Assembly: GCF_013122565.1 (NCBI RefSeq)
Contig: NZ_CP053258.1
Direction: 5' to 3' (one strand)
Source: Escherichia coli
GTDB lineage: Bacteria > Pseudomonadota > Gammaproteobacteria > Enterobacterales > Enterobacteriaceae
Length of the DNA: 64,000 nucleotides
Positions within the stretch are counted from its first letter, which is position 1. Each line of letters starts with the position of its first letter. The position numbers and the translations under genes are program-made. Under the pieces are notes generated by a model that was given only the letters and a program-made list of their open reading frames with translations, did no database searches and was not told where the DNA came from. This document shows, piece by piece, positions 18,228-59,653 of this stretch.

Positions 18228-18411
18228 TCACAACCCGAAGATGTTTCACTTCAGAGTTGCGAAAATTTGAGAGACTCACGAACAACATTCGTTGTTCAGT
18301 GTTTCAATTTTCAGCTTGATCCAGATTTTTAAAGAGCAAATATCTCAAACATCACCCGAAGATGAGTTTTGAGATATTGAGGTCGGCGACTTTCACTCAC
18401 AAACCAGCAAG

Positions 18412-26413: not shown

Positions 26414-26459
26414 GAGTAAAAATGACTCGCTACCCGCAGCAGGCGAGTCATTTTTACTC
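26414..26459. promoter_or_regulatory. ZraR enhancer-binding inverted repeat in the zraP/zraS divergent region
   Basis: gagtaaaaatgactcgc and gcgagtcatttttactc are perfect 17-bp inverted repeats separated by 12 bp. Confidence 0.7.
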
Positions 26460-26979: not shown

Positions 26980-27681
26980 TCAGAACGTTTTCTCGTTGGG
27001 TTGCCAGCGACAGAAATCAGAGTTTGCCACCAACAGTAATTGCGAACCTTCGGGCGCTTCCAGCCATGCCACGCTGACATCAACAGAAGAGCGGCTCTGG
27101 CGGCGCTCGATATGCGCTATCGCCTGCGAATCTAAATCAGGTTTAATGGTTTGCCCTTCGCAGGTGGTCACGGTCTGTTCCATCGCATGCCAGCGCCCCT
27201 GGCGCAGCACGACTCTCCCCTGACGTAAGGCATCGCTAATCTGGCGGATCTGATCAGCACGATAACGGTATAAATCGATTTGGTCGTTAGAAAGCTGCTG
27301 CTTTTCCCCATCGGATTCACGTTGCATAAAGCTCAGATCGCCGCGATCGTCAAAACGCGCGCGAATGTTCACCGGCGGTTTGCTGTAAACATTGATATTG
27401 ATGAGCGTAAGGTTATCGCCCTGCCAGCGATACTCTCGCGTGGTGGTATCGCCACTGCGCCACGGGCTAAACACGGCAAGCAGATGCACATTATCGCCGC
27501 TGTCTTTTCGCCAGATACGTACCGCGCCCTGGTCTTCAGCAAATCCACTGGCGGTAAAGGGAGGAAGTGAAGAGTTGTGACTACAGGCAGTGAGAAACAG
27601 AGCGCCTGCCAGCATCAATGATCGACGCCAGAAAGACAAAAGGGGTGAAACCACCCCTTCGTTAAAACTGTTCACTGCCAC
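26980..27681 (-). CDS. yjaH: DUF1481-family putative lipoprotein YjaH
   Basis: 233-aa ORF with a lipobox-like LTAC motif near the N-terminus; position between zraP and hupA; true start may be internal. Confidence 0.7.
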   Translation of the reverse strand: MAVNSFNEGVVSPLLSFWRRSLMLAGALFLTACSHNSSLPPFTASGFAEDQGAVRIWRKDSGDNVHLLAVFSPWRSGDTTTREYRWQGDNLTLININVYSKPPVNIRARFDDRGDLSFMQRESDGEKQQLSNDQIDLYRYRADQIRQISDALRQGRVVLRQGRWHAMEQTVTTCEGQTIKPDLDSQAIAHIERRQSRSSVDVSVAWLEAPEGSQLLLVANSDFCRWQPNEKTF

Positions 27682-27687
27682 GCAATC

Positions 27688-27960
27688 TTACTTAACTGCG
27701 TCTTTCAGTGCCTTGCCAGAAACAAATGCCGGTACGTTAGCTGCGGCAATTTTGATTTCTTTACCGGTCTGCGGGTTGCGGCCAGTACGCTCAGCGCGGT
27801 GGTTCACTTTGAAGGTACCGAAACCAACCAGTTGTACAGCATCGCCTTCTTTCAGAGACTCAGTAATTGCAGCCAGAGTGGACTCCAGAGCAGCTTTAGC
27901 CTGGGTTTTGGACAGTTCTGCTTTCTCTGCAATTACATCAATCAGTTGAGTCTTGTTCAT
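27688..27960 (-). CDS. hupA: DNA-binding protein HU-alpha
   Basis: 90-aa [93 protein letters not shown]. Confidence 0.97.
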
Positions 27961-28146
27961 AAGTTATCCTTACAATGTGTTTATCGCTTGCTAAGCATCG
28001 AGTGCGACGGAAATGCCAGAATAGCACTCTCCTGCATACACGCACCGATAGCCACTTTTTTTCGCCCCCCAAATGTAGACCAGACGGGGGGCGAAAGGGA
28101 AGACTCCAGGTACGACAAATCAGGCGTTAAATCACGTTTTCTGGTC

Positions 28147-28737
28147 TTATTGCTGAAAAATTATACCAATATTGCTCTCACCCGCCTCACGCAGGTCTGC
28201 CCTAAGGCCTTTTATCAGCTCGATATCGCGTTCTTCGCACTCAGCTAAAAGTCGGAATATTTCCCACTGAATGTCCCATTCTTGCTCTACAGCTGGGTTT
28301 TCTTTGAGCTCTTCATCGCTCATTTCGCGACCAGCCTGAGTCATTTCCAGCATCGCAACGGTCGTGATGGAGGTCTTACTCACTTCTACCGCGTGTTCGA
28401 GCGTTTCACCACTCAAACGCGAATGGACCAGTTCACTTAACGCCACGCAGGCATCGATTGCGGGATAAACGCCGTACAGATCGAAATCGTCGGCTGAAGG
28501 AATCGCTTCTTCAAATTTCTCCAGTTGGCTGTCGAAATTTACTTTTGCGTCTTTAACGGTCAGCGTTTCCCAGATGAGATCGAGAATACGACGGTAAATT
28601 TGCCCATCACCAAAACCGGTTTGCTGGCAGAACATGGCGTAATTGGGGTACATGCGTTCGCATAAGCAAGCCATGAAAGTGACATGCTGCCAGCTTTCCA
28701 GGCGCTCCAGACGCAGATGAATTGGGTTTTGTAACAT
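28147..28737 (-). CDS. yjaG: DUF416-family protein YjaG
   Basis: 196-aa ORF; conserved position between nfi and hupA. Confidence 0.75.
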   Translation of the reverse strand: MLQNPIHLRLERLESWQHVTFMACLCERMYPNYAMFCQQTGFGDGQIYRRILDLIWETLTVKDAKVNFDSQLEKFEEAIPSADDFDLYGVYPAIDACVALSELVHSRLSGETLEHAVEVSKTSITTVAMLEMTQAGREMSDEELKENPAVEQEWDIQWEIFRLLAECEERDIELIKGLRADLREAGESNIGIIFQQ

Positions 28738-28779
28738 GTTGAGTTCTCAAATACGGAAATTATCCGCAGTTTACCTGAA

Positions 28780-29451
28780 TTAGGGCTGATTTGCTGTATA
28801 GCGCACGAACGCCGGACGTTCCGAGGCCACCGCGTCCGCCCAGCGCGTTGGCTCCGGCAGACGATAGCCTTTCATGCAGCGTTGTACCCACGCCAGCGCG
28901 CTGTCCACGCTGACCCGATGGCCGGTAGCGATAAACAACGGGTTACAGCGCGCTTTGCTGCGCCAGACCCAGGCCAGCTGCTCGCCTTTATCCATCAGTG
29001 GGGCCAGCGCGCCCGGTTCGCTGGAGAGCGGTTCGAATTTACCGCAGAGCCGTTTTTTCGCCACGCCAATGGTCGGCACATCCACCAGCAAACCAAAATG
29101 GCTGGCAACGCCAAGACGGCGAGGATGCGAGATCCCGTGACCATCGACAAACACTAAATCCGGCTTTTGCGACAGCATCTCCCACGCTGCCAGCAGCGCA
29201 GGATATTCGCGGAAGGAGAGAAAACCTGGAATGTAAGGCATGGTGGTGGCGATGCGGGCCACTTTATACTCCACCAGCTCAAGCGAGGGGTATTTCAGCA
29301 GCACCATCGCCGCTCGCGTCACTTCTCCGCCCTGCTCAAACCCGACATCGGCTCCGGCGATCAGATCCGGTGGATCTTTATCGAGTTGATCCTCGCGGAT
29401 CACAGAAGAAGCCAGTTCGATTTGTTGAGCGCGTAATGACGCGAGATCCAT
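28780..29451 (-). CDS. nfi: Endonuclease V
   Basis: 223-aa [55 protein letters not shown]... Confidence 0.9.
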
Positions 29452-59460: not shown

Positions 59461-59653
59461 TCACAACCCGAAGATGTTTCTTACGATTCATCATCGTGTC
59501 GCGAAAATTTGAGAGACTCACGAACAACTTTCGTTGTTCAGTGTTTCAATTTTCAGCTTGATCCAGATTTTTAAAGAGCAAATATCTCAAACATCACCCG
59601 AAGATGAGTTTTGAGATATTAAGGCAGGTGACTTTCACTCACAAACCAGCAAG

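What the first reader, a model, noticed from the sequence alone, without database searches (positions are those of the whole stretch)
28055..28100. GC-rich hairpin with a 10-bp C/G homopolymer stem upstream of hupA
tttcgcccccc-N15-ggggggcgaaa (28061-28095) forms a stem with a run of six C paired to six G in the yjaG-hupA spacer. It lacks a U-run in either orientation, so it is not a canonical terminator. It sits in the hupA 5' region where promoter or UTR structure could act. Homopolymer stems are also slippage-prone.
Basis: seen in the sequence. Interest (0 to 1): 0.2.

Follow-up and report, generated by a model that had tools for sequence, protein, structure and literature searches.

The report
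Inverted repeat straddling hupA promoter
The GC-rich "hairpin" upstream of the E. coli hupA gene is real as a sequence, but it lies across the already-mapped hupA promoter and transcription start, so it is ordinary promoter DNA and not an RNA structure in the hupA message.

Summary
The inverted repeat exists: TTTCGCCCCCC / GGGGGGCGAAA, 28060-28070 and 28086-28096, 11 perfect pairs with a 15-nt loop. About 0.2 such repeats are expected per shuffled window.

hupA and yjaG lie on the minus strand. The hupA start site is published at -105 from the ATG, which is window 28065. It is confirmed by dRNA-seq in E. coli and by the 5'-UTR primers used for Salmonella. This position is the last G of the G-run, inside the downstream arm.

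In gene orientation:
- The upstream arm covers the last base of the -35 hexamer and the upstream spacer (-31..-21).
- The "loop" holds the -10 hexamer TACATT.
- The G-run is the discriminator plus +1.

The hupA mRNA therefore carries only six bases of one arm and cannot form the hairpin. Term-seq shows no 3' end behind it.

Across 79 Enterobacteriaceae sequences the two arms are conserved separately. There are no compensatory changes, and only 8 sequences keep the perfect repeat. Tract length is fixed in about 99% of roughly 5,400 E. coli genomes.

Verdict: a known promoter whose palindromic look is largely incidental. Interest is low. The strong conservation of the spacer C-run remains unexplained.

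The parts
28086..28096 (-). Upstream arm of the inverted repeat in gene orientation (TTTCGCCCCCC). It covers promoter positions -31..-21: the last base of the -35 hexamer, then the upstream part of the spacer including the C6 run (-26..-21).
   Evidence: The repeat finder reports it. Positions are relative to the start site at 28065. The C-run has 96% column identity in 79 species, while the outer TTCG has only 80%.
28071..28085 (-). The 'loop' of the repeat (GTCTGGTCTACATTT). It covers promoter positions -20..-6: the downstream spacer, the -10 hexamer and the first discriminator base.
   Evidence: This is the most conserved segment. Column identity is 99.9% and 14 of 15 columns are invariant in 79 species.
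28072..28077 (-). -10 hexamer TACATT (-12..-7). It matches TATAAT at 4 of 6 positions, including A2 and T6.
   Evidence: Read from the sequence. Its last T lies 7 nt upstream of the mapped +1. It is invariant in all species aligned.
28096..28101 (-). Probable -35 hexamer TTCCCT (-36..-31) with an 18-bp spacer. The same position reads TTCACA (5/6 match to TTGACA) in Kluyvera, Erwinia, Pantoea and Dickeya.
   Evidence: Alignments. This assignment is inferred. The consensus promoter scan did not call it.
28066..28071 (-). Discriminator TGGGGG (-6..-1), which is G-rich. Five of these six bases belong to the downstream arm.
   Evidence: [quoted passage not shown] The G-run varies among species (GGAGGG, GGGAGG, GGAAGG, GGTAGG, GTGGGG) without compensating change in the C-run.
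28065..28065 (-). hupA transcription start (+1, G). It equals MG1655 U00096.3 position 4200176 and U00096.2 position 4198199.
   Evidence: PMC2760140 lists hupA p1 at -105 for both the known start site (Kohno 1990, Claret 1996) and its own mapping. The dRNA-seq Table S2 of PMC4681348 lists FWD_(I)-4198199 with RegulonDB overlap YES. The Salmonella 5'-UTR primers begin GCGAAAAAAGTGG.
28060..28070 (-). Downstream arm of the inverted repeat (GGGGGGCGAAA). It covers -5..+6, so only GCGAAA (+1..+6) is transcribed from the hupA promoter.
   Evidence: CGAAA (+2..+6) has 99.7% column identity.
27961..28065 (-). hupA 5' UTR, 105 nt. The region near the RBS is the RaiZ/ProQ target.
   Evidence: Start site. 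The RaiZ target is described in PMC5391140. 79 of the 99 columns from +7 to +105 are invariant in 79 species. The fold from +1 leaves the first 10 nt unpaired and is unremarkable, z = -0.57.
27688..27960 (-). hupA coding sequence (HU-alpha, 90 aa).
   Evidence: ORF list and RefSeq annotation under the matches.
28147..28737 (-). yjaG coding sequence (DUF416, 196 aa). Its stop codon ends 50 nt upstream of the repeat.
   Evidence: ORF list, RefSeq annotation and Pfam PF04222.
28114..28140 (-). Conserved upstream block AAAACGTGATTTAACGCCTGATTTGTC (-75..-49). It is a candidate activator region, since CRP and Fis are reported regulators of hupA.
   Evidence: Conserved. A fragment starting at CGTGATTTAACG and ending just before the ATG drives lacZ (PMC6047807). 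'FIS activates the hupA gene' is stated in PMC9221221. The sites themselves were not mapped here.
27639..27660 (-). hupA intrinsic terminator. It is the only terminator-like site in 27600-28800.
   Evidence: The terminator scan finds it. It coincides with the strong Term-seq 3' end at MG1655 4200605.

Best explanation
The inverted repeat is the core of the known sigma-70 promoter of hupA. It is not a functional hairpin.

Read on the minus (gene) strand, the layout is:
- -35 hexamer TTCCCT (-36..-31)
- 18-bp spacer TTCGCCCCCCGTCTGGTC
- -10 hexamer TACATT (-12..-7)
- G-rich discriminator TGGGGG (-6..-1)
- +1 G at window 28065, followed by CGAAAAAAAGUGG...

The upstream arm of the repeat is the last base of the -35 hexamer plus the upstream spacer. 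The 'loop' is the downstream spacer plus the -10 hexamer. The downstream arm is the discriminator, the start site and the first six transcribed bases. RNA polymerase melts roughly -11..+2 here and starts at the last G of the G-run. The hupA mRNA therefore contains only GCGAAA of the repeat and cannot form the stem.

Shown: the repeat, the start-site position in E. coli and Salmonella, the absence of a 3' end behind the repeat, separate conservation of the two arms without covariation, and invariant tract lengths.

Inferred from established promoter knowledge: the G-run acts as a discriminator element. G two bases downstream of the -10 hexamer is the base favoured by sigma region 1.2. GC-rich discriminators also tune open-complex stability. 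This would help a promoter with a poor -35 hexamer and a long spacer.

The perfect 11-bp complementarity in Escherichia arises from two independently constrained G/C runs plus a variable outer part. That outer part is one C-to-T change away from the commoner TTCCG.
For: - Start site: hupA p1 is at -105 for both the known start (Kohno 1990, Claret 1996) and the DMTSS mapping (PMC2760140).
- Independent dRNA-seq lists start site FWD_(I)-4198199 with RegulonDB overlap (PMC4681348 Table S2). This is MG1655 v2 numbering and equals ATG minus 105.
- The coordinate map was checked against Term-seq rows for hupA.
- Salmonella 5'-UTR cloning and T7 primers begin at GCGAAAAAAGTGG (PMC5391140 appendix).
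- TACATT ends 7 nt before +1.
- A fragment from -70 to just before the ATG drives lacZ (PMC6047807).
- Term-seq in three conditions lists no 3' end at MG1655 42001xx. It does list 4200253, 4200389 and 4200605.
- Conservation in 79 Enterobacteriaceae sequences: the loop with the -10 hexamer is 99.9% identical, the C-run 96%, the G-run 91% and the outer 5' arm 80%.
- Pair counting on 30 distinct sequences gives 0 pairs with changes on both sides. 79.4% of cells are paired, against a shuffled mean of 79.7%.
- Only 8 of the 79 sequences have the perfect 11-bp repeat, and 47 of 79 have 3 or fewer contiguous pairs from the loop.
- Hairpin free energy ranges from -25.8 to -8.4 kcal/mol.
- There is no Rfam family.
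- The sequence is single copy per genome.
Against: - The consensus promoter scan called no promoter in 27600-28800. The -35 assignment (TTCCCT, 18-bp spacer) is therefore weak and inferred.
- The spacer C-run and the invariant GTCTGGTC are far more conserved than sigma-70 spacers usually are. The promoter reading does not explain this.
- The C-run/G-run complementarity persists in Erwiniaceae and Dickeya. A role for a short GC pairing cannot be excluded.
- hupA is reported to be activated by DNA relaxation (PMC8301835). After isoleucine starvation its mRNA first rises about 1.6-fold before falling (PMC7066862 supplement; column meanings not verified). A simple 'GC-rich discriminator means stringent, supercoil-activated promoter' story is therefore not supported.
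- The original mapping papers (Kohno 1990, Claret 1996) could not be read.
Confidence: 0.85

Rival explanations
1. The hairpin acts at the RNA level in transcripts that read through from yjaG. There is no terminator between yjaG and hupA. A -26 kcal/mol stem could end or protect the 3' end of yjaG mRNA, either as a U-less terminator or exonuclease barrier, or it could structure a long hupA leader.
For: - The stem is strong on the gene strand, -26.6 kcal/mol with z = -3.6.
- It begins 50 nt after the yjaG stop.
- No other terminator-like site lies between yjaG and hupA.
- Some stem remains in most species, from -8 to -26 kcal/mol.
Against: - No 3' end at MG1655 42001xx and no Rho termination region there in Term-seq under three conditions.
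- No U-tract.
- The loop of 15 nt is longer than in intrinsic terminators.
- No compensatory substitutions, and uncompensated G-to-A/T changes in many species.
- The 'loop' is the most conserved part, which fits a -10 element and not a loop.
Confidence: 0.06
2. The repeat acts at the DNA level. It could be a symmetric operator for a dimeric regulator. It could also be a supercoil-extruded cruciform recognised by a structure-specific protein such as HU itself, giving autogenous control at the hupA core promoter.
For: - The repeat is centred on the core promoter.
- The C-run and G-run are both unusually conserved, even in Erwiniaceae and Dickeya.
- The single-stranded DNA fold is -14 kcal/mol, z = -3.9.
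- The literature titles cited mention autogenous control of hupA and HU binding to cruciform DNA. This is a lead only.
Against: - The perfect repeat is confined to 8 of 79 sequences.
- There are no compensatory changes.
- The G-run is interrupted without any change in the C-run in Klebsiella, Salmonella, Raoultella, Kluyvera and others.
- A 15-nt unpaired centre makes cruciform extrusion energetically unfavourable (established DNA biophysics).
- Half-sites whose centres lie 26 bp apart are atypical for dimeric operators.
Confidence: 0.04
3. The C6 and G6 runs form a slippage-prone contingency tract that varies hupA expression between strains or cells.
For: Homopolymers of 6 can slip. A few genomes show +/-1 lengths: 4, 1 and 7 genomes.
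Against: - 5354 of 5388 matching genomes are identical over 69 nt.
- The variants make up 0.2% and are scattered.
- One inspected variant has -1 errors in three homopolymers at once, which points to an assembly artefact.
- The tract length is also constant across genera, apart from one C7 and one C5.
Confidence: 0.01

Closest known systems
hupA P1 promoter of E. coli (RegulonDB hupAp; Kohno et al. 1990, Claret & Rouviere-Yaniv 1996)
   Same: It is the same locus and the same start site, -105 from the ATG. It is a single sigma-70 promoter, reported to be regulated by Fis and CRP.
   Different: Nothing differs. The only addition is the observation that the core promoter is embedded in an 11-bp inverted repeat in Escherichia. 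I found no text describing the repeat, but the original papers could not be read.
Sigma-70 promoters with G/C-rich discriminators (rrn P1, fis and other growth-phase promoters)
   Same: The stretch between the -10 hexamer and +1 is G/C-rich (TGGGGG). The -35 hexamer is weak. The gene is expressed mainly in exponential growth and Fis is involved.
   Different: The spacer is 18 bp, not the short 16 bp typical of stringent promoters. hupA is reported as relaxation-activated. The ppGpp response is not established. The non-template G at -5 is the base that stabilises open complexes, whereas rrnB P1 has C at that position (established knowledge, not tested here).
Rho-independent (intrinsic) terminator
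   Same: A GC-rich stem lies shortly after a stop codon.
   Different: The loop is 15 nt. There is no U-tract in either orientation. There is no Term-seq 3' end.
5' UTR stabiliser or regulatory hairpins (for example the ompA 5' stem-loop)
   Same: It lies upstream of a highly expressed gene.
   Different: The start site falls inside the stem, so the structure is absent from the mRNA. The first 10 nt of the real 5' UTR are predicted to be unpaired.

Membership tests
Sigma-70 core promoter (hupA P1) | An experimentally mapped transcription start at the element. | tested here: met
   Taken from the literature, not a new experiment. The start is at -105 by nuclease/primer mapping and DMTSS. dRNA-seq lists start site 4198199 in v2 numbering. 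The Salmonella 5'-UTR primers start at the same G.
Sigma-70 core promoter (hupA P1) | A -10 hexamer resembling TATAAT that ends about 7 nt upstream of +1. | tested here: met
   TACATT at 28077-28072 occupies -12..-7 and includes A2 and T6. It is invariant in 79 Enterobacteriaceae sequences and 8 further Enterobacterales loci, among them Erwiniaceae and Dickeya.
Sigma-70 core promoter (hupA P1) | A -35 hexamer resembling TTGACA at 16-19 bp spacing. | tested here: inconclusive
   E. coli has TTCCCT (2/6) with an 18-bp spacer. The same position is TTCACA (5/6) in other genera. The consensus scan reports no site.
Sigma-70 core promoter (hupA P1) | A DNA fragment containing the element drives a reporter. 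| tested here: met
   Taken from the literature. In PMC6047807 a fragment from CGTGATTTAACG... to just before the ATG, fused to lacZ, is active.
Stringent-type promoter (GC-rich discriminator) | [quoted passage not shown] | tested here: met
   TGGGGG, with 5 of 6 bases G.
Stringent-type promoter (GC-rich discriminator) | Direct inhibition by ppGpp/DksA and a short-lived open complex. | tested here: inconclusive
   The starvation RNA-seq series shows hupA rising about 1.6-fold and then falling (column headers not verified). The genome-wide ppGpp dataset is not held. Open-complex lifetime is not testable with these tools.
Intrinsic terminator | A GC-rich stem with a short loop, followed by a U-tract. 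| tested here: not met
   The stem is present, but the loop is 15 nt and the stem is followed by A7 on the gene strand and by AAAGGG on the other strand.
Intrinsic terminator | An RNA 3' end immediately downstream in vivo. | tested here: not met
   There is no Term-seq 3' end or Rho region at MG1655 42001xx in three conditions.
Structured cis-regulatory RNA in the hupA 5' UTR | The whole structure lies within the transcript. | tested here: not met
   +1 at 28065 lies inside the 3' arm, so only 6 nt of the repeat are transcribed.
Structured cis-regulatory RNA in the hupA 5' UTR | Base pairs maintained by compensatory substitutions, or a match to a curated family. | tested here: not met
   0 of 11 pairs show changes on both sides, and the covariation score is no higher than in shuffles. 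There is no credible Rfam hit: the best is mir-4716 at 16 bits against a gathering score of 76.
Phase-variable homopolymer (contingency) tract | Tract-length polymorphism among strains. | tested here: not met
   5354 of 5388 matching genomes are identical. Variants at +/-1 number 4, 1 and 7 genomes. The inspected variant looks like a sequencing artefact. The G7 query was uninformative.
Dispersed palindromic repeat (REP/BIME-like) | Many copies per genome. | tested here: not met
   The median is 1 place per E. coli genome and the highest is 2.

The most novel reading that the evidence does not exclude
The complementarity between the spacer C-run and the discriminator G-run is conserved from Escherichia to Erwinia and Dickeya. 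It might be used at the DNA level. Under negative supercoiling, or during promoter melting, the repeat would form a hairpin or cruciform around the -10 element. This structure would be recognised by HU, or would otherwise gate open-complex formation. The result would be structure-based autoregulation of the gene for HU-alpha. A related possibility is that starting within a G6 run allows reiterative (slippage) transcription that senses GTP.
Probability: 0.04. Interest if true: 0.55.

Novelty: already known. Interest (0 to 1): 0.08.

Why it matters
As it stands, this matters little. The hupA promoter and its start site have been known since 1990, and the analysis simply reassigns a "hairpin" to that promoter. 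Two general lessons follow. First, a statistically striking inverted repeat can be produced by two independently constrained promoter segments. Second, a consensus promoter scan can miss a real, highly active promoter. The only open point of some interest is why the spacer (C-run plus GTCTGGTC) and the whole 105-nt 5' UTR of hupA are almost invariant across the Enterobacterales families sampled. This suggests dense, still uncharted regulatory contacts on a major nucleoid-protein gene.

Tried and rejected
- Rfam with permissive thresholds gave only noise: mir-4716 and HOTAIR, both far below their gathering scores.
- The sigma-70 consensus scan found no promoter in 27600-28800. The promoter assignment therefore rests on published start-site mapping, not on the scan.
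- I first considered the perfect extended -10 (TGgTATAAT, 28167-28159) inside the end of yjaG as a possible hupA promoter. It would have put the hairpin in a 190-nt leader. The dRNA-seq table lists no start site there, and a fragment lacking it is still active.
- The terminator reading was rejected on anatomy and on Term-seq.
- The covariation test was negative.
- The slippage reading was rejected from about 5,400 genomes. The query with a seventh G on the window's + strand (a C7 spacer run in gene orientation) returned 'no match', probably because of the low-complexity filter, so it is uninformative.
- Attempts to read Claret & Rouviere-Yaniv 1996 and the Sanchez-Vazquez 2019 ppGpp dataset failed because neither is held. 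The ROSE in-vitro start-site supplement had no hupA entry.
- Literature searches for a hupA discriminator/ppGpp link found nothing specific.
- More distant relatives (Yersinia, Vibrio) could not be reached. The single genome scan returned only loci encoding YjaG at 90% identity or more, and the protein search listed only hits at 84% or more.

Full report
**Observation**

The window is E. coli chromosome read in reverse. hemE, nfi, yjaG (28737-28147) and hupA (27960-27688) all lie on the minus strand. The repeat finder confirms a perfect 11-bp inverted repeat with a 15-nt centre: TTTCGCCCCCC at 28060-28070 and GGGGGGCGAAA at 28086-28096.

As minus-strand RNA the element folds at -26.6 kcal/mol, z = -3.6. 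As DNA it folds at -14 kcal/mol, z = -3.9. Perfect repeats of this size number 8 distinct sites in the window, against 0.2 expected from shuffles. The sequence feature is real and non-random. It has no U-run after the stem on either strand, and the terminator scan ignores it. It matches no Rfam family. It is single copy per genome.

**Where transcription starts**

- PMC2760140 tabulates hupA p1 at -105 from the ATG. This holds for both the classical mapping (Kohno 1990, Claret 1996) and its own genome-wide method. With the ATG at 27960, position -105 is window 28065.
- I anchored window coordinates to MG1655 using Term-seq rows that carry sequence. The ATG is 4200281 in U00096.3, and the v2 coordinate is the v3 coordinate minus 1977.
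- An independent dRNA-seq table lists a class I forward start site at 4198199 (v2), flagged as overlapping RegulonDB (PMC4681348 Table S2). This is exactly ATG minus 105.
- For Salmonella, Smirnov et al. cloned 'the hupA 5'-UTR' with primers that begin GCGAAAAAAGTGGCTATCG. This is the same G.

Position 28065 is the last G of the G-run, inside the downstream arm.

**Anatomy that follows (minus strand)**

| Element | Sequence | Window | Promoter position |
|---|---|---|---|
| -35 hexamer | TTCCCT | 28101-28096 | -36..-31 |
| Spacer (18 bp) | TTCGCCCCCCGTCTGGTC | 28095-28078 | -30..-13 |
| -10 hexamer | TACATT | 28077-28072 | -12..-7 |
| Discriminator | TGGGGG | 28071-28066 | -6..-1 |
| Start | G | 28065 | +1 |

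After +1 the transcript reads CGAAAAAAAGUGG. The upstream arm therefore covers the last base of the -35 hexamer and the upstream spacer. The 'loop' carries the -10 hexamer. The downstream arm spans -5..+6. The hupA mRNA contains only GCGAAA of the repeat. Folded from +1, its first 10 nt are unpaired and the UTR fold is unremarkable, z = -0.57. A fragment from -70 to just before the ATG drives lacZ (PMC6047807). The consensus promoter scan missed this promoter because the -35 hexamer is poor.

**Is the hairpin used by any RNA?**

Only read-through from yjaG could contain it whole. Term-seq in three growth conditions lists 3' ends at 4200253, 4200389 and 4200605, the last being the hupA terminator. 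It lists nothing at 42001xx and no Rho-termination region there.

**Comparative test**

A genome scan with YjaG returned 80 Enterobacteriaceae loci. Of these, 78 loci plus the window were aligned from the end of yjaG to the hupA ATG. Mean column identity by segment:

| Segment | Position | Identity |
|---|---|---|
| yjaG 3' end | coding | 90% |
| Upstream spacer DNA | -81..-37 | 86% |
| -35 hexamer | -36..-31 | 86% |
| Outer 5' arm | -30..-27 | 80% |
| C-run | -26..-21 | 96% |
| 'Loop' | -20..-6 | 99.9% |
| G-run | -5..+1 | 91% |
| CGAAA | +2..+6 | 99.7% |
| Rest of the 5' UTR | +7..+105 | 98% |

The outer 5' arm varies (TTCCG, ATCTG, ATTGG, ATTAG and others), while its partner CGAAA never changes. 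The G-run carries GGAGGG, GGGAGG, GGAAGG, GGTAGG and GTGGGG variants opposite an unchanged C-run.

Formal pair counting on 30 distinct sequences gives 0 pairs with changes on both sides. 79.4% of cells are paired, against 79.7% in shuffles. Only 8 of the 79 sequences keep the perfect 11-bp repeat: the Escherichia sequences, one Citrobacter and two Enterobacter-like loci. In 47 of 79, 3 or fewer contiguous pairs remain next to the loop. Predicted stability ranges from -25.8 to -8.4 kcal/mol.

Eight further loci were fetched (Cronobacter, Atlantibacter, Mangrovibacter, Erwinia, Pantoea, Paramixta, Dickeya). They show the same core, GCCCCC[C/T]GTCTGGTCTACATTTGGGGGGC, with different flanks. The pattern fits conserved promoter elements, not a conserved helix.

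**Slippage**

Over 69 nt centred on the repeat, 5354 of 5388 matching E. coli genomes are identical. Queries carrying tracts shortened or lengthened by one found 4, 1 and 7 exact genomes, from unrelated strains. The fourth query returned nothing, probably because of filtering. The one variant examined has -1 errors in three homopolymers within 69 nt, as expected of an assembly artefact. There is no phase variation.

**Mechanism**

Shown:
- The repeat coincides with the hupA core promoter.
- Transcription starts within the repeat.

Inferred from established promoter biology:
- The G-run works as a discriminator.
- G at -5 is the base preferred by sigma region 1.2.
- G/C-rich discriminators modulate open-complex formation.
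- Both effects could compensate for the poor -35 hexamer and the 18-bp spacer.

I do not claim stringent or supercoiling control, for three reasons. hupA is reported as relaxation-activated. Its mRNA rises before falling in an isoleucine-starvation series. No direct ppGpp data could be obtained. Fis activation is reported in the literature.

**Rivals**

- A read-through RNA hairpin: about 0.06.
- A DNA-level operator or cruciform, possibly read by HU: about 0.04.
- A contingency tract: about 0.01.

**What remains unexplained**

The spacer (C6 plus GTCTGGTC) and the 105-nt UTR are nearly invariant across the Enterobacterales families sampled. This is more than a plain sigma-70 promoter requires.

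**Verdict**

- The feature is the already known hupA promoter, and interest is low.

Noticed in passing
window 27961-28059 (minus strand): The hupA 5' UTR is almost invariant. Mean column identity is 98% and 79 of 99 columns are identical in 79 Enterobacteriaceae sequences. This exceeds the adjacent yjaG coding end (90%). The RaiZ/ProQ target covers only about 30 nt near the start codon, so most of this conservation is unexplained. The predicted fold is unremarkable (z = -0.57).
   Followed up: partly
window 28078-28091 (minus strand, promoter -26..-13): The spacer of the hupA promoter (CCCCCC GTCTGGTC) is conserved at 96-100% from Escherichia to Erwinia and Dickeya. Spacer sequence is usually free to vary, so this suggests an overlapping regulator site or a sensed DNA conformation.
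   Followed up: partly
window 27988 (= MG1655 4200253, minus strand): Published Term-seq lists an RNA 3' end inside the hupA 5' UTR, 28 nt upstream of the ATG, in one growth condition. It could be a premature termination or processing site.
   Followed up: no
window 28159-28167 (minus strand): A perfect extended -10 motif (TGgTATAAT) lies inside the last codons of yjaG, without a recognisable -35 hexamer. No start site is listed there in the dRNA-seq table consulted.
   Followed up: partly
window 28114-28140 (minus strand, -75..-49): A conserved block, AAAACGTGATTTAACGCCTGATTTGTC, lies upstream of the promoter and includes a CGTGA half-site. It is likely the CRP/Fis activator region reported for hupA, but it was not mapped here.
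   Followed up: no
L082 about 1420-1545 (Dickeya fangzhongdai): An insertion of about 124 nt interrupts the otherwise conserved hupA 5' UTR in this species. Its nature is unknown.
   Followed up: no
window 26414-26430 and 26443-26459: A 17-bp perfect inverted repeat (GAGTAAAAATGACTCGC / GCGAGTCATTTTTACTC) lies upstream of the zraP-like ORF. It is the longest repeat of this kind in the window and is probably the ZraR enhancer-binding site.
   Followed up: no
window 18339-18378 and 59581-59620: The same 11-bp inverted repeat (AATATCTCAAA ... TTTGAGATATT) occurs twice, 41 kb apart. By the coordinate map these fall in the two rRNA operons (rrnE and rrnB).
   Followed up: no
window 27600-28800: The consensus sigma-70 scan returned zero promoter-like sites, although a strong, experimentally mapped promoter lies in this interval.
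   Followed up: yes
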